This document shows positions 19,266 through 62,508 of a DNA stretch of 64,000 nucleotides, piece by piece. The stretch lies in assembly GCA_000004985.1 (NCBI GenBank), contig GG738851.1; one strand, 5' to 3'. The DNA comes from Naegleria gruberi. Its lineage: Eukaryota. The position numbers were made by a program, and so were the translations under genes. Each line of letters opens with the position of its first letter. Within the stretch, counting starts at the first letter, position 1. The notes below the pieces were generated by a model. That model was given only the letters and a program-made list of their open reading frames with translations. It was not told the origin of the DNA and made no database searches.

Positions 19266-19271
19266 TGTTAA
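18810..19271 (+). CDS. Tandem di-ubiquitin-like protein: two divergent ubiquitin units ending RLRGG-C
   Basis: Unit 1 is [76 protein letters not shown], about 88% identical to canonical ubiquitin. Unit 2 is [77 protein letters not shown], about 80% identical. Confidence 0.8.
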
Positions 19272-23042: not shown

Positions 23043-23248
23043 ATTATTTTTTAAATTGTTAATAATTTGTTATTTAATATTTTTATTTTTTGAAACATCA
23101 GGAACTTTGTATATTTGTGTATCAGTGAGAGGAGTGGATATTGGCTGGGATAATTTGTTGTGGATGGCGGGAAATATATTCATCGGAAGAAGGTAAATAG
23201 TAGTGGTACATTTGTGGTGAATTACAAATTCGTGTTGTGCATTGTGGA

Positions 23249-24142: not shown

Positions 24143-24399
24143 TTTTTAATGATGATGATGATGAATTTTTTCAGTTCAACTGCTGATGCTGCAATTGTGT
24201 TTTTTAGTGTGGTGTTGTTGTTGTTGATGTTGAAAGAACTTTTTTTTCTAGAATTTTACAGCCTTTTTAAAAGCATTCTAATAGGACCATCAATAAGAGA
24301 GACAATCACCATAAATATCCAAGCATTTCATCATGGAACAAGTATCATGAAGAATAGATAATACAATAACAAAACATGTAATCATTATGAATCATATTG

Positions 24400-24620
24400 T
24401 CAGGTTGCAGTCTCAGTTATCCATCAGCTTTAAATGTGATTTTTAATGATGATGATGAATAATGTGGATCCGACATGGATATCTTCATCATGATGATGAA
24501 TTATTTAGTAATCCACATTTTCTTCATCATGATAATGATCATTAAAGCACTTGGACTTGCTCTAACTGTTGCAATTTCTTGGTGGCAGGTGTATCAAGCC
24601 TTGAAACTGATTACATTCTC
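24400..24620 (-). pseudogene. Degraded 3' fragment (last ~30 codons plus 3' flank) of a paralogue of the gene at 28235-28867
   Basis: About 200 bp at 24405-24600 aligns at ~75% with 28150-28330. Copy 1 encodes ...EIATVRASPSAL then a frameshifted NDHYHDEENVDY*. The intact copy reads EIPTVRANPGAVNDHHHDEENGDYYYYK*. The upstream coding part is absent. Confidence 0.5.
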
Positions 24621-24677
24621 CAACTAATTAGTATTATTTCAAGTTGATAAACACTTGAAAAGAGAATATATCATACT

Positions 24678-27533
24678 TTATTCAAAATGTTTCAATTTAC
24701 AAACCTTCCACCATTTCCACATTTTGAGATTGGATGGTTGTCTAGCTTTGGATTTCCTTTTCATTAAAACCACAACTAATATGACAATAAGGATAATTAT
24801 GAGTGCAAGAATTGAAACCACAACTATTGGAACAACCACAGCAGCTGCAATGGCCCCACCACTCATTAATTCTTCCTTTGCAAAATCATTTCTTCCCTCA
24901 GAGGTTGATGGGATTGAAACTACTATAGTTCTAGAAGGATTCGAATACTTATGAATAGAAATTGGAGAAGTAGTTTGAACGGAATCACTGATTATTGTTT
25001 GATTTTTGAAAATTAGATATGATAATGCAGTCAGTTTTCCAACTGTAACTCCGATAGGAATACTTGTTGTAAAGTTTGATGAAAGCAATGGAAACTGATG
25101 GAATGACAAAAATTGATCATCAATATAGTAAGCAATAACTAATTCGATCTGCTCACTGGAATTGAAGTAGCCCAAGAAGTTGTCTTGTACAATACTGAAG
25201 GAAAGCGATGAAGTGATAAATTGAACATAGTCAACCGAAGCATTGAATTGCAACAACATGGAAGAATTAGTGAGATATCTGTACTGACACTGTTCTCCCA
25301 CAATGCCTTTCATACATTTGCAAGTGTTGAAATTTTCACATTCTCCCTGGGAATTGCAAACTGTTGAATCGTTAGATAACTTATCGAAACAAAAGGTCAC
25401 ATTACATGATTCTCCCATCCACTTTGAAATATTGTTGCACTTGCAAGTATCGAATGATAGACAAGTACCATTTCCTTCATTACAAACATGTGTGGAGTAT
25501 TGTTCAATTCCAAAACATGTGGTAAATTCACAATTCTTTCCAGAATATCCTTCATTACATTTACATTCGTCTACATCTATGCATTTACCATTTTGAGAAC
25601 AAACTGATGAGTGGTTATGTAGTATTTCTTTACATTTGAATAGCTGACAATTCTCTCCAAAATAACCCTCCACTTCTCTGCACGAACATTGATTTGGGGC
25701 AAGGCAATTACCTCTTGAAGAACAAACTTGTGAGGAATTCTTCTTAATTCCAAAACAATCAAACATTTCACATTGATCTCCATAATAACCATCATGACAT
25801 GTGCAATTATTAGCAGAAGCACATCTACCATGAGAAGAGCAAACTGAGCTATTATCAAATTTGACTCCAAAGCAATCGAAACTTTCACATTGATTTCCAT
25901 AATAAGCACTGTTGATACATGAGCAATTGTTTGGTGAGGTACATACACCTCTTGAGGAGCAAACAGATGAAGAATTCTTCTTAATTCCAAAACAATCATA
26001 CATTTCACATTGATTTCCATAATAACCATCATGACATGTGCAATTATTGGCGGAAGCACATCTACCATGAGAAGAGCAAACTGAACTATTATCAAATTTG
26101 ACTCCAAAGCAATCGAAATTTTGACAGCTGACTCCATAATATCCTTTCATGCAGGTGCAATTATTTGGAGATGCACAACTTCCACGTGAAGAGCAAACAG
26201 ATGAGGAATTCTTCTCTACACCAAAACAAGCATGCATTTCACATCGATTTCCATAATATCCACCACTACATGAGCAATAGTTTGGTGAGGTACATACACC
26301 TCTTGAAGAGCAAACAGATGAAGAATTCTTCTTAATTCCATAACATTCATACATTTCACATTGATTTCCATAGTAGCCCTCCTCACAAGTGCAATTATTT
26401 CTGGATGAGCATTGCCCATGAGCAGAACAAACATTTGACTGATTTGAAGGAATGTTATAACATTCAAATGAGTTACAATAAGCTCCATGATAACCACTCC
26501 AACATTCACAAGTGTGTGTTGATACATTGAAAGAAGAGAATCGATCACAAAATGGAATAAGCTTTCGAATCTCAGATTGGGTTGCAAAAATGATTTCTCC
26601 ATTAGTGGGACATATTGAGATACTTGAAGGTCCATATATTCTCCCCAATGTAGCAAGAGAACCATCACCACTAGTTCCAGAAGTACCAGTTCCTGCCACT
26701 GTTGTTATAATACCATCCTTTGACACTCTTCTAATTCTGTGATTATTGACATCAGCAATGAAAACAACACCTGTTGGCAGGACATCTAAACCAGCAGGAG
26801 TATATAGCTGTGCATTGACTGCCAAACCACCATCACCACTAAAACCTAGAGTACCAGTGCCAGCAATAGTTGTAACTATTCCATCCTTATCAATCTTTCG
26901 AATTCTATGATTGAATGCATCTGCAAAGTAGATTGATCCAATTGCAGCAGTGATACCTCTTGGAGATGTAATTTTACAATCTTTAGCAAGCGAGCCATCG
27001 CCACCATAACCATAAGATGCTCCAGCAATGCGAACATTGGTTCCATTCTTGAATATTTGCTTGATTGAGTAGTCAGTACCAACCAACACATCATCAGTTT
27101 CACTCATTGTCAAGCTCACTGGAGAGAATGCTGAACCGTATGTTGAAATTATACCATTCTTGTCGACCTTTCTAACAATATTATTGATATTTTCAGTGAA
27201 GAATGTATCACCATCCTTGCTGAATCCAAGACCCATTGGTGAATTAAGTTTAGCATTGATTGCAAGACCACCATCACCTGAATATCCTCTAGAATTAAAT
27301 TGTCCTGCCAACCCAACAGATGTACCATTTGGATACTGGACAAACACATAGCTTTTTACTGTGTGTGCAACGTAGATTTCTCCACCTGAACCACAATGAG
27401 CATAGTATGATTGTTGAATACCACTAATAGGTGTGGCAAGTTTGTACTGAGGGTCATAACATGTGACCACATGTGATACACAATGCACAACTAGAAGGCA
27501 TATTAAGATGAATGAGAGTGTGTAGCCTTGCAT
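24678..27533 (-). CDS. Type I membrane protein: signal peptide, NHL-repeat beta-propeller, about 14 tenascin-type EGF-like repeats, one C-terminal TM
   Basis: The ATG at 27533 starts MQGYTLSFILICLLVVHCVS. NHL motifs include HRIRKIDKDGIVTTIAGTGTLGFSGDGGLA and HRIRRVSKDGIITTVAGTG. The EGF units look like CSSRGVCTSPNNCSC..YYGNQCE..DCFG. The TM is AIAAAVVVPIVVVSILALIIILIVILVVVLMKRK. Confidence 0.8.
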   Translation of the reverse strand: MQGYTLSFILICLLVVHCVSHVVTCYDPQYKLATPISGIQQSYYAHCGSGGEIYVAHTVKSYVFVQYPNGTSVGLAGQFNSRGYSGDGGLAINAKLNSPMGLGFSKDGDTFFTENINNIVRKVDKNGIISTYGSAFSPVSLTMSETDDVLVGTDYSIKQIFKNGTNVRIAGASYGYGGDGSLAKDCKITSPRGITAAIGSIYFADAFNHRIRKIDKDGIVTTIAGTGTLGFSGDGGLAVNAQLYTPAGLDVLPTGVVFIADVNNHRIRRVSKDGIITTVAGTGTSGTSGDGSLATLGRIYGPSSISICPTNGEIIFATQSEIRKLIPFCDRFSSFNVSTHTCECWSGYHGAYCNSFECYNIPSNQSNVCSAHGQCSSRNNCTCEEGYYGNQCEMYECYGIKKNSSSVCSSRGVCTSPNYCSCSGGYYGNRCEMHACFGVEKNSSSVCSSRGSCASPNNCTCMKGYYGVSCQNFDCFGVKFDNSSVCSSHGRCASANNCTCHDGYYGNQCEMYDCFGIKKNSSSVCSSRGVCTSPNNCSCINSAYYGNQCESFDCFGVKFDNSSVCSSHGRCASANNCTCHDGYYGDQCEMFDCFGIKKNSSQVCSSRGNCLAPNQCSCREVEGYFGENCQLFKCKEILHNHSSVCSQNGKCIDVDECKCNEGYSGKNCEFTTCFGIEQYSTHVCNEGNGTCLSFDTCKCNNISKWMGESCNVTFCFDKLSNDSTVCNSQGECENFNTCKCMKGIVGEQCQYRYLTNSSMLLQFNASVDYVQFITSSLSFSIVQDNFLGYFNSSEQIELVIAYYIDDQFLSFHQFPLLSSNFTTSIPIGVTVGKLTALSYLIFKNQTIISDSVQTTSPISIHKYSNPSRTIVVSIPSTSEGRNDFAKEELMSGGAIAAAVVVPIVVVSILALIIILIVILVVVLMKRKSKARQPSNLKMWKWWKVCKLKHFE
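25500..26460 (-). repeat. Internal tandem array of ~117-bp (39-aa EGF) units. Adjacent ~237-bp blocks are over 90% identical.
   Basis: The motif aattcttcttaattcc recurs at 25736, 25973 and 26324, and a variant at 26207. The blocks 25736-25972 and 25973-26206 are nearly identical. Confidence 0.75.
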
Positions 27534-28234
27534 TTTGTTTTTTTCAATTTTTTAACACAATTTGACTCTTGGTGTGAATAAATCGTACTTTCATACTAAT
27601 ACTAACTGCGCTCTGATGACAGAAGATATTACTGTACACCAACAAATTTCAGTGATAAAACATGATAAGACTAACGTGTCATAGGTTGGTTTTAACAATT
27701 GTCATGCTGAATTAGTGTATTGGATCCAATTACAATCCATACATGGCTGTACGAAAGATAATTCGATTACAAAGTTATAACATTAAAAGGAAGAATTTTG
27801 GATTTCTCCTCGGTTTCAGTGACTATCCAACAAGATTGAGATAAACCCAAATTTCAAGTTATGGATTTTCCATGTTTTGATTCCAGAGTTTGCACTTTAA
27901 GACAATAGTATGGTTGTAAAGTTAAATTGATTTGTTTGACATCTCATATGTCCTCAAGTTACTGTAAGTTACAAACAACAATCCAAGGAGATTGATGCCA
28001 AAAGTTGAGAAATTGTTATTGGCAACCTAAACTGTCCCTTGTTTCCTTCAATTTTTCTCCTCTAACATTCGTTCCAATCCAGGTAATAATAACAAGCAAA
28101 GCAATAATAAGATATTAAATCATAATACAATTTTTATTGAGATCAAGTTATCGTCCCATTATCCATCACTTTAAATGTTTTAATGTGATGATGAATAATG
28201 TTCACTCCAACATTGTCATCATTGTTGTGATGAA

Positions 28235-28867
28235 TTACTTATAGTAATAATAATCTCCATTTTCTTCATCGTGATGATGATCATTCACAGCACCTGGATT
28301 TGCTCTAACTGTTGGAATTTCTGGATCGGATGTTGTTGATTGTGATTTACATGTTTGAATGAGAATGTATGATTCCAAAAAGCTTTCAACTCCAGTTCTC
28401 TTTTCCTTCTCAATATCAAATATTGTGATTACATCCAATCCCTTTGGATGAAAGATGATAGAATTTGCGTTAGCGATTAGTCTTTCAATATCATACTTGA
28501 TTTTATCTGTTTCCTTAACTGCCTTTCTTTGAGTTAGCAAATTATTAACTAGATACCACACACCAAATACCACTAACCACAGTCCTAATGTTAAAATACT
28601 TAATATAATATGCACAATTGTAATATATTTAATGAGAGGACTTGGTGTTAATCTCCTCTTCAGGGACTTGATAAGCTTATTCACCTCGCCAACAAAGTTT
28701 TCATATGTAGCCCTTTCTATATCATATTGTTCCAATAATTTAGGGTAAATATCATTATAGTTTTCCGAGTAAGGATTGAAATTACAGTGCCACAGAGAGG
28801 AGGAATCGAAATGACCATGCATCATAATGATTGTACTACTTTTTTTTCTAAGGTTAAACTTATTCAT
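28235..28867 (-). CDS. Small membrane protein (one TM) with an acidic His-rich C-terminus. Hypothetical.
   Basis: ATG at 28867 (MNKFNLRKK...). The ORF-track start at 28876 is a GTG. TM is YITIVHIILSILTLGLWLVVFGVWYLV. C-terminus is NDHHHDEENGDYYYYK. Confidence 0.5.
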   Translation of the reverse strand: MNKFNLRKKSSTIIMMHGHFDSSSLWHCNFNPYSENYNDIYPKLLEQYDIERATYENFVGEVNKLIKSLKRRLTPSPLIKYITIVHIILSILTLGLWLVVFGVWYLVNNLLTQRKAVKETDKIKYDIERLIANANSIIFHPKGLDVITIFDIEKEKRTGVESFLESYILIQTCKSQSTTSDPEIPTVRANPGAVNDHHHDEENGDYYYYK

Positions 28868-29099
28868 TATCAGCACACTCGCACAATTGTTGCGTGTGAA
28901 ATCGTGCTCTCAACGTTGAACTCTTGTGAAATATCCAGTTTGATTGTCGCGTCAATGTGCTACTACCTACTATTCCACATCAGGCTGATGTTGATACAAA
29001 GGAAAACCTCAGTAAAATATGCTATCTACATAATTCCCTTCCTAACAATCCGATTAAACGCAAGAATCTTACAACTGGACTTCAAATAGACTCTACACT

Positions 29100-29891
29100 T
29101 TAAATTAAATTGTGGAGGGAATCAATTAATTGCTGAATGTTTTCTCCCGATTGTGCACTCAGTTCAATAAGTTCAAGATGTTTACAACTTTCCTTAATAT
29201 GATTGAATTGGATAAAGTGTTCGAACAATTGAGTGCTGAAAATACAAGGAGCATCTCTGGAGTATTGTTAATTTTCTCATTTCCTTAAATCAATGAAATC
29301 TTACCTCTTATTCAAAACGACAATGAAATTCTTTTGATCTTTGAGTTTTGCCAATAAATTCAACAATTCAATACATGAAGCTGATAATTGCATTGAATTG
29401 GAAGCATCAATCACAAACTTTTACTTGATTCAGCACCATAAAGATCATTTAAACTTACTACAATAACTTTACACTCCTCAAAGTAACGATGCCAAGTAAG
29501 AATGATTCCTCCTCCAACTTCTCTAATCTTGATCTTCTTAGCCTTTTTCTTTCCAGATCCAATTATTAACTCCTCCAAATTCACTCCATTCGTTGGTAGG
29601 CCATCATAAAACACTAATAATTCACTATTGGTGATCACATCTAATTATTATTAAATTATTATTGAAATATATTAATAAATGATAATATTATTCGGAATTG
29701 TATTATTTTCAAAATCAAACTCCTAAGTAAGTAACAATATAATCCAATTATTATATAAACCTACTCTTCATTTGTTTAATGAGAAAACTCTTTCCACTTC
29801 CTTGCAAACCCAACATTAATACATCCACTCCATTATTATTAGAAGATGAAACAATTCCTCCACTATTACTCCTTGCCAAATTATTGCTCAT
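29100..29891 (-). CDS. Divergent Arf/Arl-family small GTPase, 185 aa. CDS complement(join(29100..29235,29305..29417,29459..29639,29765..29891)).
   Basis: P-loop VDVLMLGLQGSGKSF. Switch II and interswitch IKIREVGGGIILTWHRYF, compared with Arf WDVGGQ..LWRHYF. KVIV|FVIDASNS compared with IFVVDSND. G4 is FIVVLNK|S. G5 is ELSAQSGENIQQL. Introns are 125, 41 and 69 nt. No N-terminal Gly2. Confidence 0.65.
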
Positions 29892-30169
29892 ATTATAATC
29901 ACTCGGATATGAAAACAAATCTTCTCTATTATTGTTATTTCAACTTTTTTATAATTATTTCTTCCCGCCAACAATTTTAAAAATACATACGAATTGTAAA
30001 TTACTAAATTAATTTGAAAATAATTTAAAAATTAAATATAATTAAATAGTACTTGGTTTTGAATTTTGGGATAACGATAGGTAATGGGGCGTAAATGGAA
30101 GTGAACAGTTAAAACTTGCCACGTCCACGCTTCACTTGTCAATTCATCTTGTATTAATCTTTAAAAAAA

Positions 30170-32008
30170 ATGTTTAATTCGAAACTGGCAAGATGGGGAG
30201 GTCTTGTTATTTGTCTTTTAGTTTTGGGAGGAATTTTAATGAATTCCAGTCATATATTAAAGAAGAAACCATTTGGTTTATTAGGAGGTTCGAATACTTC
30301 TAATACGAAAGTAACGACAAATAATCCGACAACAACAACACCAACACCAACAACTCCTACAACAACACCAACATCAAATAACAACATTGAAGATACAGTT
30401 GAAATTTCCCGATTGGAATTGGAAGAATTAAAGATCAGTGCACAATCGTGTAAAGTTCTGAAACATTTTTCAATTGTTTTAATTGATACTGGAGGCGAGG
30501 TACATAAGAAAATTAGACAATTGGTTGGTTCAATCCATCGTTATCATGAATATGAATTATTAATTTATATTTATGGATTGGATCTTGATGAAGCTGCCAA
30601 AGGTGAAATTCATATTTGGAGAAATGTTGAATATTGGGATATTAGAAGTATTTATCAAGTTTCTACTAATGTTGATAGAACTGAGAAGATTATTGCAGAA
30701 TATTGGAAACCTGTGATATTTAAACATAGTGTTGAACGTTTGGGAAAGTTTGTTTACATTCAACCAGGTTATTATCTTTCACAAAAGTTGGAAGTTGATG
30801 CCATTGATGAATATTTGGAAAGACATGGCAGTTTTTATGCATCGCCTGAGTGTAAGGATGCATTGTCTAGTGAGAAATATCTGGCCATTGCTTCAACTTT
30901 TGATGTCGCCATGCATGGTATTCAATTCAATTCTTATGCCTATAAGAATATTTATACACCATTGTATGATTGTGCTAGAGCTCATTGTTCTCAAATTCAA
31001 ATGAAGGATTTGGATGCTGATAAGTTTATTTCTCTATCAGATGATTTGAAATTATCTGTTTTCTGTCAGGATATCACAAAGATTACCAAGTCATTAGTTA
31101 GTACACCACCTGGAGAGAGTGCTTGTTACATTATTAATAGAGAAGATTTTATACTTTCTGGAACTCAATTACCAGGTAGCCCACAAAAGTCATGGCTTGC
31201 CTTTACACCTTCAAAGGATGACAATGGAATCATCAAACAACCAGATGATAAGAGAATTCATGTTGCATTGGGTATACCAACAACTTCAAAGGGACACAAC
31301 CATGTAACTGAAAACCCACTGTTCAAAGTCTTGTTACCATCTCTCAAAAACACAATAGGAAAGAAGGGAACTGAGGAAGGCGACAAGTATGTTTACAAAC
31401 TCTATTTGGCTATTGATCGTGGTGATCCAGTTTACGATAAACCTGAAAATCAAAAGCAATTCAAAGAGTTAGTGAACAGTATGATGAGTGAGTACAATTT
31501 CCACTTCCAAATCATTAGGGTTATCAACTCATATGGTTGGGTTCCAATGCTTTGGAATACAGTTTTCCATCATTCTATTGATGATGGTGCCGATTACTTT
31601 TATCAACTTAATGATGATGTTAGGTTTATTACTCCTGGCTGGACTCAGACACTTATTGATAGACTGGCCAAAAATCCTGTCAGATCTAATTTTGGTGTTA
31701 CAGGACCAACTGATGAAGGAAACAGATCAATATTAACACAAGCTTTCGTCCATCGTACCCACCACAAGATATTCGGCTATTTCTATCCATATGTCTTTAA
31801 GAATTGGTTCAGTGACGACTGGATTTCACTAGTTTACAGAGATTATCATTCATACTTTAAGGATCCTCATCAACCAATGGTTCACAATCAACAAACATTT
31901 GGTACTAGATACGATGTTTGTAATGCTAATGGTAGAGAAAACTTGAATAAGGTTCTTCAATCATCTAAGATCAAAATTAAGGAATATTTGGAATCACACA
32001 AAGAGTAA
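30170..32008 (+). CDS. Type II membrane protein, probably a Golgi glycosyltransferase (DxD-containing). Family uncertain.
   Basis: N-terminal signal anchor LVICLLVLGGILM, then a poly-T/P stalk, then a ~450-aa globular domain with LNDDVRFITPGW. Confidence 0.4.
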   Translation: MFNSKLARWGGLVICLLVLGGILMNSSHILKKKPFGLLGGSNTSNTKVTTNNPTTTTPTPTTPTTTPTSNNNIEDTVEISRLELEELKISAQSCKVLKHFSIVLIDTGGEVHKKIRQLVGSIHRYHEYELLIYIYGLDLDEAAKGEIHIWRNVEYWDIRSIYQVSTNVDRTEKIIAEYWKPVIFKHSVERLGKFVYIQPGYYLSQKLEVDAIDEYLERHGSFYASPECKDALSSEKYLAIASTFDVAMHGIQFNSYAYKNIYTPLYDCARAHCSQIQMKDLDADKFISLSDDLKLSVFCQDITKITKSLVSTPPGESACYIINREDFILSGTQLPGSPQKSWLAFTPSKDDNGIIKQPDDKRIHVALGIPTTSKGHNHVTENPLFKVLLPSLKNTIGKKGTEEGDKYVYKLYLAIDRGDPVYDKPENQKQFKELVNSMMSEYNFHFQIIRVINSYGWVPMLWNTVFHHSIDDGADYFYQLNDDVRFITPGWTQTLIDRLAKNPVRSNFGVTGPTDEGNRSILTQAFVHRTHHKIFGYFYPYVFKNWFSDDWISLVYRDYHSYFKDPHQPMVHNQQTFGTRYDVCNANGRENLNKVLQSSKIKIKEYLESHKE

Positions 32009-32138
32009 AAGAGTAAATATATTGAAATTTTTAAGTAGAGAGGTGTAAACCAATGACTGCCTTGGTATTTGTTCGTGTCCTATACTTCTATGGAATAATT
32101 CTTATATTGTTGAAGAGTGAAATATTAAGGTAAAGAAT

Positions 32139-32256
32139 GGCTACGGCCATATCACGATGAATGCACTTCATCCCGTCCGATTTGAAAAGTTAAGCATCGT
32201 CGAGCCACATCAGTACTGAGGTTGGAGACAACTTGGGAACCTGTGGTGCTGTAGTC
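32139..32256 (+). rRNA. 5S ribosomal RNA
   Basis: GGCTACGGCCATATCACG...CATCCCGTCCGATTTG...AAGTTAAGCATCG...GTACTGAGGTTGGAGACAACTTGGGAACCTGTGGTGCTGTAGTC. The 5' and 3' ends pair to form helix I. Confidence 0.9.
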
Positions 32257-32263
32257 TTTTTTT
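32257..32263 (+). terminator. Pol III T-run terminator (TTTTTTT) of the 5S gene
   Basis: Seven T residues directly follow the 5S 3' end. Confidence 0.7.
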
Positions 32264-32345
32264 GCAAGGAAAAACAAGAATCATACATTTTTGTTTGTAA
32301 ACCTCAACAAAATCAATAGTAACTTCAACTTAGAAAACAAAAAAA

Positions 32346-33353
32346 ATGGAACGCAACCACAGCAAGGATATTCGTAAAGATCCTTCTCCATTATTCGATT
32401 TAAAACTTGAGGCTTCTCCCACTCATTCCCTCATGGTTCATAGAAGAATAGTCTGTAACAAGTCGAAACTCTTAAATATGTTACTATTGAGAGAACAAGA
32501 ACTGGTTGGCCCGAATGAAATTGTTCATACTCTCCGTATTCAACTTCCAATTGAAGATGGTGAAGAGAATGAAGAGTCTCTGATAGAGGAATTAGTTAAA
32601 TACTTTGATCAATGCATTGATTTAATGTACGATCAAAATATTGAGATGAGTACTCATGTTGTGAGAATGGCAATGTTTTTAATGATGGATGCAGATAGAG
32701 TCTTAAAGCGTTGGGCAAAGGGGCTATCTGAAACTCTTAATTCTTCCGATTTGCAATTAATTAAGGGGTTGATTGATGATGAAAGTATTGGTTATTCTAA
32801 CAAGACTATTAGGTGTTTAATTTCATACTATGGAAATCAAATCACTAAGGAATGCAGTATTCCTCAACAAGTTCTTGATGAATTAATTATTTATGGTGAT
32901 TTTCATTCAACCGAAAAGCTTAATGAAGAAGTTGTGGGGTTTTCTCGTAATAGAGATTCTGTAAAAGTTATTCGTTCTGAATTTGTTAATATTGGATTGG
33001 TTTCTAGAGGAGGATATCAAAAATTCAGTGCTTTCGGTGTTGATTGGTTATTGAAACGATTCAATCTGAGTTTTAATGAAGAATTGTTAAAGATTTATGT
33101 TGATGACGATTTTGAGATTTCAGAAACATTGGTTTCTCCTTTGAATATTAGAGTTTACTTTATTTTGTACAGCAAGTATGAACGTGTTTGTGTGGACTTG
33201 AGTAATATTGAACAAATTGAATCTATAGAAAAATATAAGGCGTCCTATCAGGCAAAACATTATTCCAGAAACGGTATGTGCACTTGTTTTGAAAATTTAA
33301 AGGGGTGTGCTAAAGTTTCAGTATATTTAGAAGAGATTGATGATAATGAATAA
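32346..33353 (+). CDS. Hypothetical protein, 335 aa
   Basis: Clean ORF with an A-run before the ATG. No domain recognised. An N-terminal BTB-like region is possible. Confidence 0.45.
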   Translation: MERNHSKDIRKDPSPLFDLKLEASPTHSLMVHRRIVCNKSKLLNMLLLREQELVGPNEIVHTLRIQLPIEDGEENEESLIEELVKYFDQCIDLMYDQNIEMSTHVVRMAMFLMMDADRVLKRWAKGLSETLNSSDLQLIKGLIDDESIGYSNKTIRCLISYYGNQITKECSIPQQVLDELIIYGDFHSTEKLNEEVVGFSRNRDSVKVIRSEFVNIGLVSRGGYQKFSAFGVDWLLKRFNLSFNEELLKIYVDDDFEISETLVSPLNIRVYFILYSKYERVCVDLSNIEQIESIEKYKASYQAKHYSRNGMCTCFENLKGCAKVSVYLEEIDDNE

Positions 33354-33575
33354 ATCCTATTATTAATAGTTAATAAAGGGTTGTTCTAAAAAGAAAAAAA
33401 ACTCAAATAACAATAAAGTTAATATCTAGGAAATTGAATATTAAAGATATGGCACCTTAAACATCCGTGTTCGAATCTAGAAGAGAAATCTGAACAAATT
33501 CGGCAACACCAATAAATGTGAATTTATGAAAAATAGAATAGATTCAAAATTTACACTGGCCACAATATGTGTTTC

Positions 33576-34235
33576 TTATAATTTTGAAATAAGCCCATAC
33601 ATATACCATGTTATTGGGTTTTGAACAACTGAAATCACATCCTTGTCCTTCTTCAGCTCGGTGCTAGCATACTCCAGAGCTCCAATTTTATTTTTAATGG
33701 CCCTCAGCACAACCTGTTTATCATTTCTCATGTTAACACTGGCGAATTCCAGAGCTAAGCCGTTATTTTTAACAGCATTCAACACAATTTCTTTATCGTT
33801 TCTAAATTTATCACTGAGATGTCTCAGAGTCAAGCCATTTCCATCAACCATGAATGAAAGAAACTCTTTGTCTTTCCAAAATTTCAATTTGTTAACCATG
33901 ATTTCAAGAAATTCGTAATCTTCTTCACATACTCCTTGTTGGTAATTCTCTTCTGTTATTCTTTTCCATATTTCTGTAGCTTCTGATTCAGAAATATGGA
34001 AAGACAAGTAATTCCCCAGAAATAGTCCCAAATATCGTTTAATTTGCCTCCTGTCTCTTATCAGATCAATCTTCCAACAAATGTACTGGATAGGAATGGT
34101 GTAGTAGGAATTCATAATCTCTTCCATAGTTGTGTCACCCCGCATCTTGGATTGCAGAGAGGCAGAGGAGAATGAAATATCTACTAGTATGATGACTTGT
34201 GAATCTGGAAAACCATGAGAATAATGAAATGTCAT
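33576..34235 (-). CDS. DUF4116 repeat-containing protein
   Basis: The C-terminal half has tandem ~25-aa repeats: DKEIVLNAVKNNGLALEFASVNMRNDKQVVLRAIKNKIGALEYASTELKKDKDVISVV. This fits the V-L-x-A-V-x-x-N-G-x-A-L-x-Y-A DUF4116 pattern. Confidence 0.6.
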   Translation of the reverse strand: MTFHYSHGFPDSQVIILVDISFSSASLQSKMRGDTTMEEIMNSYYTIPIQYICWKIDLIRDRRQIKRYLGLFLGNYLSFHISESEATEIWKRITEENYQQGVCEEDYEFLEIMVNKLKFWKDKEFLSFMVDGNGLTLRHLSDKFRNDKEIVLNAVKNNGLALEFASVNMRNDKQVVLRAIKNKIGALEYASTELKKDKDVISVVQNPITWYMYGLISKL

Positions 34236-34865
34236 TTTTTTTCGTTAAATGGAAGATTCGAAAAGAGTTTTACTGAGAATATATTTAACAGTGAGAATTT
34301 TGTAAGGTGATATTCCTCCTATGGAAGATTACTATCACTAAAGTACTTAATTCAACTTGTTCACGAATCTTGTTTGAAGTAATTCCAGAGATCAAGATCT
34401 GAGTGATGTATAGTTCATTATGAAAGTGTTGCTACTCTCGTTAGTTTGTTATTTGGTAGTAATTATAATCGACATTGTGTCAGACTGTATTTAGCAATCT
34501 CAATGTTATAAATATTGTCAAAATATTCATATCCACAATATAGCAAGATGGTTGCCATCAGAGTTTGCAAAAGCAAAATGAAGAAATACTCAAAGGTGCT
34601 AAAGCTTGAAAGGAATGGAAATATATCCCATTTTACCTATTTCGTTGAATAAAAAGTCTTCATCCACAGAATACTTTACATACTTCATATCTGCTATCTC
34701 CACTTTAGACAATATTTCAGTAATTTCACTCCTTAAGAACTTATTCACACATTATTTCACTCTTAACACAAGTTTATCCACAAAGAATGAGAACTAAGAA
34801 AGTGGAGAAAACCACGCGAGTGATTCCTCATCCAAAAGAATACAATACCCAACACAAGCTTGTGT

Positions 34866-35905
34866 TCTCAGTGACGTTTCATTTCACTAATGAATTTGCC
34901 CTTCTACATCAATTTCATTGTTAGAAATATTAAGTGATGTTAATTGTTTCATTTCACTTATGAATTTGGCTCCTTCATCACTAATTCTATTGTAAGAAAT
35001 ATTAAGTGATGTTAATTGTTTCATTTCGCTAATATATTTGGCTCCTTCTATACCAATTTCATTTTCAGAAATATTAAGTGATGTTAATTGTTTCATTTCA
35101 CTTATGAATTTAGCTCCTTCATCACCAATTCTATTGTAAGAAATATTAAGTGATGTTAATTGTTTCATTTCACTTATGAATTTGGTTCCTTCATCACCAA
35201 TTTCGATTTCCAGAAATATTTAGTGATGTTAATTGTTTCATTTCACAATGTATTTGGCTCCTTCATCACAAATTCGATTGTTAGAAATATCAAGTGATGT
35301 TAATTGCTTCATTTCACTTATAAATTTGGCTCCTCGATCACCAGTTATATTGTAAGAAATATTAAGTGATGTCAATTGTTTCATTTCGCTTATGAATTTG
35401 GCTCCTCGATCACCAATTTCATTGTAATTGATATTAAGTGATGTTAATTGTTTCATTTCACTTATGAATTTGGCTCCTTCTATGCCAATTTCATTGTTAG
35501 AAATATCAAGTAATGTTAATTGTTTCATTTCACTTATGAATTTGGCTCCTTCTATGCCAATGAGATTGTAATAAATATTAAGTAATGTTAATTGTTTCAT
35601 TTCACTTATGAATTTGGCTCCTTCTATGCCAATGAGAGTGTAATAAATATTAAGTGATGTTAATTGTTTCATTTCACTGATATATTTGGCTCCTTCATCA
35701 CCAATTCTATTGCCACGAATATCAAGTGATGTTAATTGTTTCATTTCACTTATGAATTTGGCTCCTTCATCACCAATTTCATTTTCACGAATATTTAGTG
35801 ATGTCAATTGTTTCATTTCACTGATATATTTGGCTCCTTCATCACCAATTCGATTGCCACGAATATTTAGTGATGTTAATTGTTTCATTTCAGTTACTAA
35901 TTCGA
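34866..35905 (-). repeat. 72-bp tandem repeat array, about 14 copies, 85-100% identical
   Basis: The plus-strand unit gaaatattaagtgatgttaattgtttcatttcacttatgaatttggctccttcatcaccaatt repeats head to tail. Confidence 0.85.
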
Positions 35906-36266
35906 GTTCTTCTATGGCTTCCAGCAAATTTGTTGAAAATTTAACATTAACAATACTATTCATAAATTGGCTTTTCATACATAATTCAACTCGTTTCTCT
36001 GTAATTTTGTTTTTAAATTGAATAACAAGTTTTGAACGTTCCTTGATCACATTAAAGAATTGTTTTGAAATCAAAGTACAATTATTTAAAATAAACCACG
36101 AATCATCAAGCATTGAAATTATTTCAAAACAAATATCATCAGAAAATATTTCTTGTGTGTCGAGTTTCACAAACTTTTTTGCTTTCTCTTCCATAAAATT
36201 ATTATTATTGAATATTTCCTCCGAATTAATGAATTGATGATTTTCCTCTCTGTTTCGTTTGCTCAT
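34887..36266 (-). CDS. F-box plus ribonuclease-inhibitor-type LRR protein built from near-identical 24-aa repeats. The frame is broken by 1-nt deletions, so this is a possible pseudogene or an assembly error.
   Basis: N-terminal F-box-like IFSDDICFEIISMLDDSWFILNNCTLISKQFFNVI. Then come 14 or more repeats of EMKQLTSLNI(S/R)xNxIGDEGAKFIS. The ORFs 35238-36266 and 34887-35168 are separated by a unit at 35201-35230 where one nucleotide is lost and a stop appears. A second 1-nt loss is near 34890. Confidence 0.6.
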
Positions 36267-36460
36267 TTTTTAAATTAGTATTTTGGACTAACATGCTTTC
36301 AATTAATCTGCTTGCCTGTTTAGTTTGAATTTTTGGTTTTACTGTATTCTGCTTAAGCCTACCTTTCCAGTGCACTTTATGATGTTTGGGAATTTTAATA
36401 ATAGAATTTACAAAATTTCCAAATTAGATTGGTCAGACATTCAATTTATTTACATAATTT

Positions 36461-38258
36461 TTACCTTAGATTTACAATATTTTCCTTTCCTTCAGGATGA
36501 AGAATTGTTGGGAGTTTCTTTGTTATCTTTACACCAATAGTTGCTTGTTGAGGAATGTTTTCCAAAATATTTTGTGAGTTGGCTTGTTGAAGAGGTTTTC
36601 GTTTAACAGGAATAACTCTGAAAGAAATATCCCCTTTCTTTCCTTCTTCAGGCTCAACAATTGAAGTTGGAGAAGTTGGAGATGGTTGTTGTCCTGAAAC
36701 TGATTCAGTAGCCATATTTGGTGAGCTAATGGCTCTCTTAATTGTTTCTTCGCTTTGGACAATTTGTAAGAGTTGTGAATTTTGTTGTTGAATGGATTTT
36801 CTCAGAGACTCGTTCTCATCTTTGAGTTTAATCACCAATTGCTCTAGCTCTTCCTTTTCCTTCTTTAATTTTTCTCCTTGATCTGTTGAGAGTTTAGCAA
36901 TTGCCTTATTGTGTTGCTGAACTAAGAGTTCATGTTCCTTTGAAGCACCTGCCAAGTCCACTGACAATCTGATTCTCTTTCCTTCATTCATCATTTGGTT
37001 ATGTTCAAGAGACTTAATTTTAAGGAATAATTCTTGGTTTTGATCAATCAATTTGGCTGTTTTTAGCTCGAGAGAGGATTGTTCTTTCACATAGTGATAT
37101 TCTTTGTTCTTGAGCTTAAATAATTGCTTTTTAAGCTTCTTATATTTCTCCTCTCTTAATTGTTGGTTTTCAAGAAGCTCTGTTATCTTGGTTTCAAATC
37201 TTTGTTTTTCAAAAGATCTTTCCTGTGAAATAACTCTCAATACAGCAAGTTCTTGGTTAAGACTCTTGATTTCCTCACACAGCATGTCCTTTTGCTTTGA
37301 TAGAATGTCCACTTTTGCCTTGAGCTCCTTACTCTCCTCTCTTGTTCCTTCTGGATCCAGAGTAAGTTCAATTTGGTACATTTCCAATTTTCTTTTAAGT
37401 TCATCCATTTCCTTCTTATTGATATAAGATTGAGTGTCGACAGATTGATGAACTGCTACTGCCTTCTCCAACAATGATGAAAAATGTTCCTTAACAGCTT
37501 TCATTTCTTTGATGGCATCCATAATTTCAGTGTTTACCACTGGTGTGCTTGGAGTGGTAACAGTTGGCAATTCCTTTGTAAGCCTAGAAAGTTCATTAAT
37601 CTTGGAAAGAGCTTCGGTATACTTTAAGTGCATTTCTCTCATGGTGTTTTTTAAAGAAATCTCTCTTTCGATGTGGCTTTCTATTTGCTTTTCCTTCTTA
37701 CAAACCATCACTTCAAGCTTTTTAAGTTCTTCTCTGTATTCTTCTACTGCAAAATCATTGGTTTGCTTTTTTTCTGTTATTTGGTTTTCCTTCAATGAAA
37801 TCATCACCATGGCTTGTTTCAACTCACTTTGATATTGAAGAGAAATCTTTTCCACATTTTGTAATAGCTCAGTCTTTGTTGAGGAAAGCTCTCTTCTCAA
37901 GTTCTCGAGGTCACTGGATTTTTCTTGCAAGCAATCCATAGCATGTTTCTTTTTCAATTTCATGTTCTTGACCTTTTTTACTAATCCATCGTTCTCCTGA
38001 CAACTAGCATTCAATTCTGAAAGTAAGTGCTCCTTATGAAATAAGTAAAATTATAAATAATTTGAAACTACTTACATTATCCTTTGATAATTTCTCAATG
38101 ATTTGATCCTTTGTTTGAATAGTCCCAATAAATTCCTTAATTTTTTTTGCGTGCTCTCCCAAATGTTTTGCTGAAATGGAGAGACCTTCTCGTTTAAGCA
38201 TCTCTATTTGTCCTTTATGAGATTTGATTGATTGTCCTTGTAATGCACAAAAGACCAT
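36461..38258 (-). CDS. Long coiled-coil protein. CDS complement(join(36461..38032,38076..38258)). It is probably the 3' part of one gene with 38342-39049.
   Basis: The ATG at 38258 starts MVFCALQGQSIK...DQIIEKLSKDN. A 43-nt GTAAGT intron follows, then EHLLSELNASCQENDG and about 500 aa of heptad-rich sequence. Confidence 0.55.
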
Positions 38259-39049
38259 AAATAAAAATAATAGTTTTTGGCTATTATAATTTTCCTTTTG
38301 AATCTGTAAAGGTAAATAAAAATTCTCATTCTAATACTCACCTCTTTTTTGATTGTCTCTTCAAGAAAATTCTCATTGTTATGTATAATTTCGTCTAAGA
38401 ATGGCATTACCTTAGCAGACACAAAGTTCGAAAATCTTCTTTTCGACTCAAAGTTTCCAGTTCCATAACTATCTTGGAACAATTTGATAATCTCTTCTGA
38501 ACTTAATTTTGAAATATCGTAACAGGAGCCCACGAAAAAGTCTTCAATGCTTCCCAAAGAGTCTCCCTCAAGGAATTGGCTCAAATTTTCACAAGTGGTA
38601 AGAAAACTCTCAATCATCTCGGCACTGTTGTTGCTCTTCAATGAACCATTCTTTGAAACACATGTTTGTTGCACGATTGGGGATTGTGTTGGACCGGCAA
38701 TATGTGTTTCCTCTTCTTGATGTTGTTCTTCATCTAATTGTTGTTCGTCAAAGTTTGCAGGATTTGAAATAAAGGAAAATAAGGATTCATCTATTGTAGA
38801 CATATCGATTTTAGATTTTTGTACATTAGGATCTAGGTTGCTATCATCCTCAAGGAATGAAGCCAAATTATTATTTGTTGGTTCCGGAACTCCATCATCA
38901 CTTGAAAATGGACTTATATCAGTGGAATGTGCTCCTTGTTTAAAATAACTGTTTAACCCTTTTGATGCACTTCCCTTACTGGCTGATGATTGTGGCGTTA
39001 CCTTCTCTTCTTTAGGGGATAGATGAAATGAGTGGAAGATGTCATTCAT
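38204..39049 (-). CDS. Hypothetical acidic S-rich protein, likely the N-terminal exon(s) of the downstream coiled-coil gene
   Basis: The ATG at 39049 starts MNDIFHSFHLSPKEEK. A GTGAGT donor at 38341 follows ...EETIKKE. Acceptors at 38304 or 38295 join in frame to the ORF that contains the ATG at 38258. The unspliced tail of this ORF translates as AT-rich junk. Confidence 0.5.
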   Translation of the reverse strand: MNDIFHSFHLSPKEEKVTPQSSASKGSASKGLNSYFKQGAHSTDISPFSSDDGVPEPTNNNLASFLEDDSNLDPNVQKSKIDMSTIDESLFSFISNPANFDEQQLDEEQHQEEETHIAGPTQSPIVQQTCVSKNGSLKSNNSAEMIESFLTTCENLSQFLEGDSLGSIEDFFVGSCYDISKLSSEEIIKLFQDSYGTGNFESKRRFSNFVSAKVMPFLDEIIHNNENFLEETIKKEVSIRMRIFIYLYRFKRKIIIAKNYYFYLWSFVHYKDNQSNLIKDK

Positions 39050-39181
39050 TTTTTTTCTAAGATTTTAAAACACATAACGGAATGATGGCGCGAGATGTTT
39101 TCCCTCCAAAATCCCTTGTTGCTGTTGTTGGCTGATGAGGTTGAATGAAATGAAAAAATTTTAAGAATTGATACAAAGTAT

Positions 39182-40565
39182 TTATTTCAAATTGAACATG
39201 GAAAGGTATTGAGCATCACTCTCATAAGTGACTTGTGGTAGGGGAAGTTTAGAACTTGCTGGGCTCCATGTACCTCTCAGAGATGGAAGTCTTTGGGCTG
39301 CATTTTGAGATCCAATTGTATTGTCAAAACGAATATATACCATACCATTTGTGTCTTGATTATCTAGAAAAATGTGTAGAATATTTCCAAAACTCTTACA
39401 TGCTTTTCTTATACTATCTTCCACAACTTTTAATTGATCACTTTGAAAATTGTTAAAGAGCTTAAAAATTGAAAACTTACACTGATGGGTCAAACATGTG
39501 ACTCACTGAAATATTTTGAGATAATGATCCTCTTACGTCAGTAGAAATGAGAGTGTTAAATCTCTCTGCATAAATATTTGAAGATGGTTTTTGAGAATAA
39601 TTATTGTTGTTATAATTTGGTTTTTCTTCCTCATAATCGTCTTGATTGTCAGTTCTTTTTTCAGCCTCATTTTCACTATAAAAACCAACCTTTAAATTTG
39701 GATATTTTGAAGAAAAAGACAGTCCATTCAATTTGGAAACTGCTTTTCTTGCACCTTCAAATCTTTGAAACGTAATAATTGCTACACCATTAAAGTTTCC
39801 AGCATCATCATTTTTCATATCAATCTTTCCAATATATCCAAATGCACCAAATAATTGAACTAAATCTGATCTATTAAAAATTGTTGGTACATTACCGGCG
39901 TAAACTTTTGTTTGACCTTGATAATAGTTATCATTAGAATATTTGTCATTGTGTTCATTGTAATCTCTCTTATTCCTCTTTTTTTCCTCAGCTTGTTTTA
40001 CAGTGATAGGAAAACCCCTCACATAGCTTCCATTTAATGCTAAAGCAGGTGTAACAGAAGTAATATCATTAAAAATCACATACGCACATCCTTTTGGTTG
40101 ATTTTTCATGCTAACTTCCAAGTAATTTGTCAAATTATTATTTGCCAACAAATCCTTGATGTCTTGTTCTATTGCATTACTTGGTAATGTTGAAATATAT
40201 ACAGTTTTATCCCTATATTCGTCCTCATAGTTGTTATAATTGTCATAACCGTAATTTCTATTGTAGTGATAAGAATTATCATACTGTGATGAATAAGATC
40301 TATTATAATCCGAATGTTCACTTCTATGTGATGAAGATGATTCTACATTTCCATCCCTATTATCATAATATTTTCTTCTTTTATACTCATCATCATTGTA
40401 TGAATCACGAGAATTTTCATAATTCCTAGAAGAGCCAGAATTATATTGATTAGGATAGGAACGATTACTGCTATTATAATCCCTCTTTCTTTTGTCTCCA
40501 CCATCATTCTCCCATCCATCGTATTTTCTGTAGGCTCTATCATCGTGTTGTGAGTATCGGGACAT
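39182..40565 (-). CDS. RBM39/CAPER-alpha-like splicing factor: RS/RD-like N-terminus, two RRMs and a C-terminal UHM. CDS complement(join(39182..39440,39481..40565)).
   Basis: RRM1 is TVYISTLPSNAIEQDIKDLL...CAYVIFND. RRM2 is KVYAGNVPTIFNRSDLVQLFGAFGYIGKIDMKNDDAGNFNGVAIITFQ. The UHM is LSQNISVSHMFDPSV|DQLKVVEDSIRKACKSFGNILHIFLDNQDTNGMVYIRF. One 40-nt GTAAGT intron. Confidence 0.75.
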
Positions 40566-40905
40566 TTTTTTGAATAATTATTAATAGAAATTAATTTTGA
40601 TTAAATAATAATTTATTGTTACAATTATTATTATTTCAATTTGTTTCTTATTATTTACAGAATGTTTCGTTATTATTATTTGGCTTGCACACGTCTTGAT
40701 ATTATTATTTAAATATGATGAACAAATATTAATCCTCATCGCTCTGCAAGTTAGGCTTTTTTCAATATTGTTATTATTATTTCAAAAACTTACAAATCCA
40801 AGATCAACCAACGAGTTAGTAATAGAAGGAGAACTGAATGGTTGTTGGGAATAAATCTCTCCATATCTTTCTCTCTAAATTAAATTATTATTCAAATTAA
40901 TTCAT

Positions 40906-41295: not shown

Positions 41296-41363
41296 TTTTT
41301 CCTGTGATGAGTCGAACTCTACAATTTTCCAAGCCTTTAAAGTTTTTATCAACACAAGAAAAA

Positions 41364-42887: not shown

Positions 42888-42912
42888 TGTGAAATAAATT
42901 AATTTATGAAAT

Positions 42913-61850: not shown

Positions 61851-61997
61851 AGAAATACTGAAATTTACTGGAAATCCATCCTGTCACCATATGGTTAGTT
61901 GCAATATTGAATAATTGACCAGACATTACTTAAAGTCCTAACTGCTGATTCTTAAGCCTCTATAATAAAGATTGTGGTTCATATGAAAATGGAAAAA

Positions 61998-62115
61998 GAC
62001 TACAGCACCACAGGTTCCCAAGTTGTCTCCAACCTCAGTACTGATGTGGCTCGACGATGCTTAACTTCTCAAATCGGACGGGATGAGGTGCATTCATCGT
62101 GATATGGCCGTAGCC
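61998..62115 (-). rRNA. 5S ribosomal RNA, second copy, inverted
   Basis: It is the reverse complement of the 32139-32256 copy with two substitutions, U to C and A to G. A T5 run follows on the coding strand. Confidence 0.9.
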
Positions 62116-62508
62116 ATTCATTTTATTAAAATGTGAAACATAAATCAGATTCTCACAACTCTTTGCTGGTAAAATATTATAGATTGTTGGAAAACTTTAG
62201 AAGTGAAACAATGAGATGAATAGTAGCCATCCATACTCTCAAAAATCATTCCTTATTAATTGAAATACATTAAATTTTGTTTCTAAAATACGAATTTCTA
62301 TTGTTTTAGTTCAAGAGGAGTTGACCAATCAATCTACAACATAACTTAAATCAATAACAAATCTTTATCTGAATTGCGAAATAGTTCAAAATTTCAAGCT
62401 TTCATTGTCTCTTCCTCTCATCATTTTAGTAACCAACGAGAGAGGGTTTTGAAGTATCAAGTCGAAGGAAATAAATTGTTTGCATTGTTTTGAATGGTAT
62501 CAGGTGAA

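What the first reader, a model, noticed from the sequence alone, without database searches (positions are those of the whole stretch)
32139..32263. Two dispersed chromosomal 5S rRNA genes in inverted orientation, about 30 kb apart, embedded among protein-coding genes
The copies at 32139-32256 (+) and 61998-62115 (-) differ at only two positions and each ends in a T-run. They are single-copy units inside a protein-coding neighbourhood, not a tandem 5S array. In the model dictyostelid D. discoideum the 5S gene is carried on the extrachromosomal rDNA palindrome. So this window comes from a different organism, or it shows a dispersed 5S organisation. The two copies share a short upstream GAATGG and their near-identity suggests gene conversion. 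A tRNA-like Pol III context can also attract retroelements, but none is present here.
Basis: partly seen in the sequence, partly recalled or inferred. Interest (0 to 1): 0.5.

Follow-up and report, generated by a model that had tools for sequence, protein, structure and literature searches.

The report
Two scattered Naegleria 5S rRNA genes
These are two ordinary, intact 5S ribosomal RNA genes in the nuclear genome of the amoeboflagellate Naegleria gruberi, a species already reported to carry about 279 such genes scattered among its protein-coding genes, so the finding is real but already known.

Summary
Rfam RF00001 matches full length at 32139-32257 (+) (103.8 bits) and 61997-62115 (-) (105.4 bits). 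Each gene ends in a T-run, sits among protein-coding genes, and the two differ at two positions.

The dictyostelid framing is wrong. Two window ORFs are 100% identical to Naegleria gruberi proteins. In Naegleria the 18S-5.8S-28S genes are on an extrachromosomal circular plasmid that is not reported to carry a 5S gene. Xin et al. 2012 (PMC3369914) catalogued 279 putative 5S genes on 117 N. gruberi scaffolds. The median gap between neighbours is about 34 kb. One listed pair on scaffold_7 is 29,854 nt apart, against 29,858 nt here, so these two genes are probably already in that table.

New details are minor:
- The two differences are base-pairing partners (U29-A48 versus C29-G48), a compensatory change in helix III. 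C-G is the state in all 12 full-length related environmental 5S genes that were found.
- Similarity between the copies stops 4 nt upstream and at the T-run, so there is no larger duplicated unit.
- No tRNA fusion, retroelement or significant target-site duplication is present.
- No 5S gene lies in the N. lovaniensis or N. fowleri DNA fetched around this region.

Verdict: already known, low interest.

The parts
32139..32257 (+). 5S rRNA gene, copy A (119 nt), carrying the derived U29-A48 pair in helix III
   Evidence: RF00001 at 103.8 bits, model positions 1-120, not truncated. The minimum-free-energy fold gives the canonical three-arm structure at -39.5 kcal/mol.
32257..32263 (+). T7 run, a presumed RNA polymerase III terminator of copy A
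   Evidence: Read directly from the sequence. Its function is inferred from general knowledge of Pol III termination.
32188..32195 (+). Box A-like element of the internal control region of copy A (gene positions 50-57, AGTTAAGC)
   Evidence: Exact match to the box A consensus quoted by Xin et al. 2012, at the canonical position +50.
32218..32235 (+). Box C-like element of copy A (gene positions 80-97, GAGGTTGGAGACAACTTG)
   Evidence: Best match in the gene to the box C consensus, with 2 mismatches, at the canonical position +80.
32122..32128 (+). Upstream A/T-rich element ATATTAA at -17..-11 of copy A, a possible TATA-like element
   Evidence: Copy B has ATTTTAA at the same offset. With only two copies, conservation cannot be tested. 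Xin et al. report a TATA box upstream of N. gruberi 5S genes.
32167..32167 (+). Variant position 29 of copy A (T; copy B has C)
   Evidence: It pairs with position 48.
32186..32186 (+). Variant position 48 of copy A (A; copy B has G)
   Evidence: In the 10-sequence alignment, pair 29-48 is C-G in 9 sequences and U-A in 1.
61997..62115 (-). 5S rRNA gene, copy B (119 nt), carrying the consensus C29-G48 pair
   Evidence: RF00001 at 105.4 bits, model positions 1-120, not truncated. It differs at 1 nt from the environmental Naegleria-like 5S gene L007.
61993..61997 (-). T5 run, a presumed RNA polymerase III terminator of copy B
   Evidence: Read directly from the sequence.
62126..62132 (-). Upstream A/T-rich element ATTTTAA at -17..-11 of copy B
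32009..36460 (.). A 4.4-kb segment present in N. gruberi but absent from the collinear N. lovaniensis block. It holds 5S copy A, a 335-aa ORF, a DUF4116 ORF and an LRR ORF.
   Evidence: tblastn synteny map. The orthologue of 36461-38014 directly follows the orthologue of 30170-32008 in L001. No bounding repeats were found.

Best explanation
Both loci are functional nuclear 5S rRNA genes of Naegleria gruberi. They are two members of its large, scattered 5S gene family of about 279 copies. This family is separate from the 18S-5.8S-28S genes, which are carried on an extrachromosomal plasmid in Naegleria.

Each copy is most likely an autonomous RNA polymerase III unit. A type-1 internal control region (box A at +50, box C at +80) would recruit TFIIIC and TFIIIB, possibly helped by an A/T-rich element about 11-17 nt upstream. 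Transcription would stop at the T-run that directly follows the gene.

The near-identity of the two copies is maintained mainly by purifying selection on the RNA. The only two differences are a compensatory C-G to U-A exchange in helix III.

Shown here: the identity and intactness of the genes, the organism, the scattered context and the compensatory pair. Inferred: transcription, the promoter elements and the mode of homogenisation.
For: - Full-length RF00001 matches lie far above the gathering score.
- The canonical fold is predicted for both copies.
- The structure is supported by covariation in an alignment with 8 related environmental 5S genes: 19 of 39 pairs keep pairing through double changes.
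- The two inter-copy differences are partners 29-48. The chance that two random sites are partners is about 0.005.
- Box A matches exactly at +50 and box C matches with 2 mismatches at +80.
- T7 and T5 runs follow the genes.
- ORFs 3646-6525 and 55996-57495 are 100% identical to N. gruberi proteins.
- Xin et al. 2012 report 279 N. gruberi 5S genes that are not linked to the rDNA, with an internal control region, a TATA box, TFIIIB and TFIIIC present.
- Their Table S1 gives 117 scaffolds and a median neighbour gap of 33.9 kb. It contains a unique pair 29,854 nt apart on scaffold_7.
Against: - No expression data were available, so activity of these two particular copies is not shown.
- Xin et al. 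found no TFIIIA homologue in N. gruberi, so the classical route of TFIIIA binding to box C is uncertain in this organism.
- Box C deviates from the vertebrate consensus at 2 positions.
- The upstream element rests on two copies only.
- The mapping to Table S1 is off by 4 nt in spacing and could not be checked against the scaffold sequence.
Confidence: 0.9

Rival explanations
1. The copies are kept alike by ectopic gene conversion between dispersed 5S genes (concerted evolution).
For: The genes are 98.3% identical while the flanks are unalignable right up to -4 and the T-run. Sharp homology boundaries of this kind are also what short conversion tracts would leave.
Against: A 5S gene from an environmental Naegleria-like contig (L007) differs from copy B at only 1 of 119 positions. 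Selection alone therefore keeps this RNA almost invariant. The two differences that do exist are a compensatory pair, which is a signature of selection on structure rather than of homogenisation. Two copies cannot separate the models.
Confidence: 0.25
2. The 5S copies were spread by RNA-mediated retroposition or by a mobile element or SINE that carries a 5S-derived promoter. They would then be recent insertions rather than stable genes.
For: The homologous unit is essentially the transcript. Copy A lies at the edge of a 4.4-kb segment absent from the collinear N. lovaniensis block. Copy B lies beyond a synteny break. No 5S gene lies in the 43 kb of N. lovaniensis or 21.5 kb of N. fowleri DNA fetched around this region.
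Against: Neither copy has an A-rich tail or a 3' extension. The longest upstream/downstream shared k-mers are 6 and 5 nt, as found at 18% and 49% of random window positions. No repeats bound the 4.4-kb segment. No reverse-transcriptase or transposase domain occurs in any scanned ORF. Both copies are full length and score like bona fide 5S genes.
Confidence: 0.08
3. One or both copies are non-functional pseudogenes or assembly artefacts.
For: Xin et al.'s list of 279 includes short and low-similarity entries, so the family does contain degenerate members. Expression was not tested here.
Against: Both copies are full length and score above 100 bits. They have intact terminators. The only divergence preserves a base pair. 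The flanks are unique and protein-coding. The upstream side of copy A is collinear with N. lovaniensis, which argues against a chimeric assembly.
Confidence: 0.05
4. The genes are expressed as dicistronic tRNA-5S units, a TFIIIA-independent route as in Yarrowia lipolytica. This would fit the reported lack of TFIIIA in N. gruberi.
For: No TFIIIA homologue was found in N. gruberi by Xin et al.. Dicistronic tRNA-5S genes exist in Yarrowia (PMC2566860, listed).
Against: ARAGORN and Rfam find only one tRNA in the window, tRNA-Ile at 52773-52845, which is 9 kb from copy B and 20 kb from copy A. The sequence immediately upstream of both copies is A/T-rich spacer.
Confidence: 0.01

Closest known systems
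The Naegleria gruberi nuclear 5S rRNA gene family (Xin et al. 2012, PLoS One 7:e36878, Table S1)
   Same: The organism is the same. The gene length of about 117-119 nt, the internal control region, the T-run and the lack of linkage to rDNA all match. The spacing of 29,858 nt matches the unique listed pair at scaffold_7 384142/413996, which is 29,854 nt apart. No other listed copy falls within the span a 64-kb window would cover, consistent with the two copies found here.
   Different: Nothing substantive differs. That paper's Table 1 labels the arrangement 'tandem'. Its own coordinates, and this window, show scattered single genes: the median gap is 33.9 kb and only 1 of 162 gaps is under 1 kb. 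The compensatory U29-A48 variant is not described in the parts of that paper I read.
Scattered 5S genes of Neurospora crassa, Schizosaccharomyces pombe and Acanthamoeba castellanii (reviewed by Haeusler & Engelke 2006, PMC1635290)
   Same: These are also single 5S units with unique flanks, dispersed among Pol II genes and unlinked to the large rDNA.
   Different: They belong to a different eukaryotic supergroup. In those organisms the large rDNA is chromosomal (from my own knowledge), whereas in Naegleria it is on an extrachromosomal plasmid.
Dictyostelium discoideum 5S genes on the extrachromosomal rDNA palindrome
   Same: In both organisms the large rRNA genes are extrachromosomal.
   Different: In Dictyostelium the 5S gene lies within the rDNA element. 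Here the 5S genes are chromosomal and scattered. The window is not from a dictyostelid.
Yarrowia lipolytica scattered and tRNA-5S dicistronic genes (PMC2566860)
   Same: The 5S genes are scattered outside the rDNA.
   Different: No tRNA is fused or adjacent to either copy here.

Membership tests
Eukaryotic 5S rRNA gene (Rfam RF00001) | A covariance-model score above the gathering threshold over the full model | tested here: met
   Scores are 103.8 and 105.4 bits against a gathering score of 38, over model positions 1-120 and untruncated.
Eukaryotic 5S rRNA gene (Rfam RF00001) | A three-arm secondary structure (helices I-V) supported by covariation | tested here: met
   The minimum-free-energy folds are canonical. 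RNAalifold on 10 sequences shows 19 of 39 pairs with compensatory changes, including pair 29-48 between the two window copies.
Eukaryotic 5S rRNA gene (Rfam RF00001) | A Pol III type-1 internal control region (box A near +50, box C near +80) | tested here: met
   Box A is an exact match at +50. Box C is the best match at +80, with 2 mismatches. Function was not tested.
Eukaryotic 5S rRNA gene (Rfam RF00001) | A run of four or more T directly after the gene, acting as Pol III terminator | tested here: met
   T7 follows copy A and T5 follows copy B.
Eukaryotic 5S rRNA gene (Rfam RF00001) | Transcription and incorporation into ribosomes | not testable with these tools
   No expression data were accessible.
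Scattered (dispersed) 5S organisation | Single gene units with unrelated flanks among protein-coding genes | tested here: met
   The flank alignment loses similarity at -4 and after the T-run. The neighbouring ORFs have Pfam domains or orthologues in other Naegleria species.
Scattered (dispersed) 5S organisation | No linkage to the 18S-5.8S-28S unit | tested here: met
   The window has no SSU, LSU or 5.8S match. Naegleria rDNA plasmids are reported to carry single copies of the 18S, 5.8S and 28S genes.
Scattered (dispersed) 5S organisation | A genome-wide scattered distribution | not tested
   The genome was not available to the tools. This rests on the literature table: 279 entries on 117 scaffolds with a median gap of 33.9 kb.
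Tandem 5S rDNA array | Head-to-tail repeats of gene plus spacer | tested here: not met
   There are only two copies. They are 29.9 kb apart, in opposite orientation, and share no spacer.
5S on an extrachromosomal rDNA element (Dictyostelium type) | A 5S gene adjacent to 17S/26S genes on a palindromic or circular rDNA element | tested here: not met
   No large rRNA genes are present. About 45 ORFs of 150 aa or more fill the window, which is collinear with a 656-kb N. lovaniensis contig.
5S-derived retroposon, SINE or retro-pseudogene | Target-site duplications, an A-rich or element-specific 3' tail, or truncation | tested here: not met
   Shared flank k-mers of 6 and 5 nt are no better than at random positions. 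Both copies are full length. No tail is present.
Dicistronic tRNA-5S gene (Yarrowia type) | A tRNA gene immediately upstream on the same strand | tested here: not met
   The only tRNA in the window lies at 52773-52845.

The most novel reading that the evidence does not exclude
5S gene positions may turn over quickly between Naegleria species. Copy A sits at the edge of a 4.4-kb N. gruberi-specific segment, copy B lies beyond a synteny break, and no 5S gene lies in the N. lovaniensis or N. fowleri DNA fetched around this region. If this held genome-wide, scattered 5S genes would be gained and lost together with lineage-specific DNA. They would follow a birth-and-death family model, or mark rearrangement breakpoints, and would not be ancient fixed loci. 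Intragenomic structural variants such as U29-A48 would then be segregating among the copies.
Probability: 0.2. Interest if true: 0.3.

Novelty: already known. Interest (0 to 1): 0.1.

Why it matters
It matters little beyond correct annotation. The finding places the window in Naegleria gruberi. It also illustrates a known peculiarity of this organism: the large rRNA genes sit on a multicopy plasmid, while the 5S genes are scattered singly through a compact nuclear genome.

Two small points are useful:
- The published summary label of 'tandem' for N. gruberi 5S genes does not fit that paper's own coordinates or this window.
- Paralogous 5S copies can differ by a clean compensatory base-pair exchange, which is a handy marker for asking which copies are expressed.

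Tried and rejected
- Dictyostelid origin. Rejected: the best protein hits are Naegleria and Willaertia, and two ORFs are 100% identical to N. gruberi proteins.
- A larger duplicated unit. Rejected by aligning 300 nt of flank on each side.
- Extra or degenerate 5S copies in the window. None were found with blastn at word size 7.
- A positionally conserved 5S gene in relatives. No RF00001 hit was found in N. lovaniensis L001 plus L017 (43 kb), N. fowleri L018 (21.5 kb) or Willaertia L002 (22 kb).
- A mobile element carrying copy A. No bounding direct or inverted repeats were found; the only strong repeat is the 72-nt LRR coding period.
- Target-site duplications. They were no better than chance.
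- tRNA-5S fusion. No adjacent tRNA is present.
- Retrieving the N. gruberi scaffold to fix coordinates. The exact-protein look-ups found nothing on record for N. gruberi proteins.
- Scans of viral and prokaryotic genome collections for the 5S helix III motif found nothing.
- One literature search returned nothing on Naegleria.

Full report
**Observation**

A gathering-threshold Rfam scan of the whole window gives three hits. Two are 5S_rRNA (RF00001): 32139-32257 (+) at 103.8 bits (E 1.2e-21) and 61997-62115 (-) at 105.4 bits (E 4.4e-22). The third is a tRNA at 52773-52845, which ARAGORN calls tRNA-Ile(AAU). Both 5S matches cover model positions 1-120 without truncation.

The genes are 119 nt long and differ at exactly two positions, 29 (T in copy A, C in copy B) and 48 (A versus G). 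Copy A is followed by T7 (32257-32263). Copy B is followed by T5 (61997-61993 on the minus strand). A low-stringency blastn of the gene against the window finds no further copies or fragments.

**The two differences are one compensatory base-pair exchange**

Positions 29 and 48 pair with each other in three analyses: the Rfam consensus structure, the minimum-free-energy fold of each copy and an RNAalifold consensus of ten related sequences. Copy A has U-A and copy B has C-G.

With 34 pairs in the model, the chance that two random sites among 119 are partners is about 0.005. All 12 full-length related environmental 5S genes found (see below) carry C29 and G48. The search pattern allowed either A or G at position 48. 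Copy A therefore carries the derived state. This indicates selection on RNA structure in both copies.

**No larger duplicated unit**

I aligned each gene with 300 nt of flank on both sides. Beyond these points the flanks do not align.

Both copies have an A/T-rich heptamer at -17..-11 (ATATTAA in copy A, ATTTTAA in copy B). With two copies this cannot be tested for conservation.

Inside the gene, the box A consensus matches exactly at +50. The best box C match, with 2 mismatches, is at +80. These are the canonical positions of a Pol III type-1 internal promoter.

**Organism**

The first protein search, with ORF 30170-32008, returned Naegleria lovaniensis (65% identity) and Willaertia magna (63%) as the named hits. 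ORF 3646-6525 (Ufd2/U-box) is 100% identical to 'ubiquitin-protein ligase [Naegleria gruberi]'. ORF 55996-57495 is 100% identical over 100% of its length to the N. gruberi branched-chain transacylase E2. Both proteins are on a 693,645-bp contig. The window's G+C content of about 32% fits. The window is N. gruberi nuclear DNA, not dictyostelid.

**Context**

Copy A lies in a 337-bp intergenic gap. It starts 130 nt after the stop codon of ORF 30170-32008 and ends 88 nt before the ATG of ORF 32346-33353 (82 nt if counted from the end of the T-run). Copy B lies between the 3' ends of a TLDc-domain ORF (61182-61850, +) and an ORF with a GlnRS N-terminal-like domain (62509-62976, -).

Forty ORFs of 150 aa or more were scanned against Pfam. 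They carry ordinary eukaryotic domains or none, and none has a reverse-transcriptase, integrase or transposase domain. The window has no SSU, LSU or 5.8S rRNA match.

**What is already known**

Naegleria rRNA genes (18S, 5.8S, 28S) are carried on an extrachromosomal circular plasmid. The plasmids described in PMC12482156 encode single copies of those three genes, and no 5S gene is mentioned.

Xin et al. 2012 (PMC3369914) searched the N. gruberi genome and reported the following:
- 279 putative 5S genes, not located with the rDNA units;
- an internal control region, a TATA box and T-run terminators;
- TFIIIB and TFIIIC present, but no detectable TFIIIA.

I transcribed their Table S1 and analysed it. 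It has 279 entries on 117 scaffolds. The median gap between neighbouring copies on a scaffold is 33.9 kb, and only one of 162 gaps is under 1 kb. The 29.9-kb spacing seen here is therefore typical.

Exactly one pair in the whole table has a spacing within 100 nt of 29,858: scaffold_7 384142-384259 and 413996-414112, which are 29,854 nt apart. No other listed copy lies within the span that a 64-kb window around them would cover. These are very probably the two genes of this finding. The 4-nt discrepancy is compatible with different BLAST hit boundaries, but I could not check it against the scaffold.

That paper's summary table labels the N. gruberi arrangement 'tandem'. This does not fit its own coordinates or this window.

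Scattered 5S genes are also classical in Neurospora crassa, S. pombe and Acanthamoeba castellanii, whereas D. discoideum has its 5S gene within the rDNA repeat (Haeusler & Engelke 2006, PMC1635290).

**Comparison with relatives**

The N. lovaniensis contig PYSW02000020.1 was fetched as two adjacent loci, L001 and L017, about 43 kb in total. tblastn of the window's ORFs shows the following:
- Window 20217-32008 and 36461-47447 are collinear with L001.
- The orthologue of 36461-38014 follows the orthologue of 30170-32008 directly.
- Window 32009-36460 therefore has no counterpart there. This segment holds 5S copy A, a 335-aa ORF, a DUF4116 ORF and an LRR ORF.
- Synteny is lost after the E2 gene (55996-57495) in both N. 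lovaniensis and N. fowleri, so copy B lies outside the conserved block.

No 5S or tRNA gene was found in L001, L017, N. fowleri L018 or Willaertia L002. No 5S gene therefore lies in the N. lovaniensis or N. fowleri DNA fetched around this region. At a density of roughly one copy per 150 kb, however, absence from these stretches is weak evidence on its own.

The 4.4-kb segment has no bounding repeats. Its one strong repeat, of 72-nt period, is the coding repeat of the LRR ORF.

**Related 5S genes from metagenomes**

A scan for the helix III motif found 14 contigs, each with one 5S gene and unique flanks. L007 differs from copy B at 1 of 119 positions and from copy A at 3, so it comes from N. 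gruberi or a close relative. The others are about 75-85% identical to the window copies and vary among themselves through compensatory changes.

Because the RNA is almost invariant even outside this genome, the near-identity of the two window copies does not require gene conversion. Two copies cannot exclude it either.

**Rivals tested**

- Retroposition, SINE or pseudogene origin. There is no tail and no truncation. The flanking shared k-mers of 6 and 5 nt occur at 18% and 49% of random positions.
- A tRNA-5S dicistron. No adjacent tRNA is present.
- An rDNA or extrachromosomal element. This is excluded by the gene content and the synteny.
- An assembly chimera. This is unlikely, because the upstream side of copy A is collinear with N. 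lovaniensis.

**Verdict**

Its taxonomic frame is wrong, and so is its implication of novelty. These are two ordinary members of the already catalogued scattered 5S gene family of Naegleria gruberi.

The minor new details are the compensatory U29-A48 variant, the exact extent of homology, and the lack of positional conservation in N. lovaniensis and N. fowleri. Interest is low.

Noticed in passing
window 52773-52845 (+): A tRNA-Ile(AAU) gene (Rfam 59.9 bits; ARAGORN) lies between ORFs 51504-52172 and 53065-53547. These two ORFs have no tblastn match, and no tRNA gene was found, in the N. lovaniensis and N. fowleri loci fetched around the E2 orthologue.
   Followed up: partly
window 30170-32008 (+): An intact 612-aa ORF is 63-68% identical to N. 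lovaniensis, Willaertia and environmental proteins, yet it has no N. gruberi protein among its hits. Other window ORFs hit N. gruberi proteins at 100%. This may be a gene missing from the N. gruberi annotation.
   Followed up: partly
window 32009-36460: A 4.4-kb segment is absent from the otherwise collinear N. lovaniensis block. It holds 5S copy A, a 335-aa ORF with no Pfam match, a DUF4116 ORF (33576-34235, -) and an LRR_6 ORF (35238-36266, -). No bounding repeats were found.
   Followed up: partly
window 34756-35991: Fourteen overlapping copies of a 72-nt period repeat correspond to the 24-aa leucine-rich repeats of ORF 35238-36266. The repeat extends about 480 nt beyond the ORF's stop (toward lower coordinates), so the gene model may be longer or contain an intron.
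   Followed up: no
window 7471-8897 (-): A glycosyl hydrolase family 14 (beta-amylase) domain is split over two overlapping ORFs, 8271-8897 (profile positions 31-180) and 7471-8307 (profile positions 183-395). This points to a short intron or a frameshift.
   Followed up: no
Literature: Xin et al. 2012 (PMC3369914), Table 1 versus Table S1: The paper's summary table scores N. gruberi 5S genes as 'tandem arrangement: Y'. Its own coordinate list gives 279 entries on 117 scaffolds with a median neighbour gap of 33.9 kb, and only one gap is under 1 kb.
   Followed up: yes
L003-L006, L008-L012, L014, L015 (metagenome contigs VFQM/VFQO): Eleven contigs from two related metagenome assemblies, ten with a full-length gene, carry a 5S gene about 75-85% identical to the Naegleria gene. 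Each has one copy with unique flanks. Several sequence variants differ by compensatory pairs in helix II. This looks like another organism with scattered 5S genes, but its identity was not determined.
   Followed up: no
window 18753-19271 (+): A polyubiquitin-like ORF has two or more ubiquitin repeats. A polyubiquitin gene also occurs near the end of the N. lovaniensis and N. fowleri loci, but in a different relative position.
   Followed up: no
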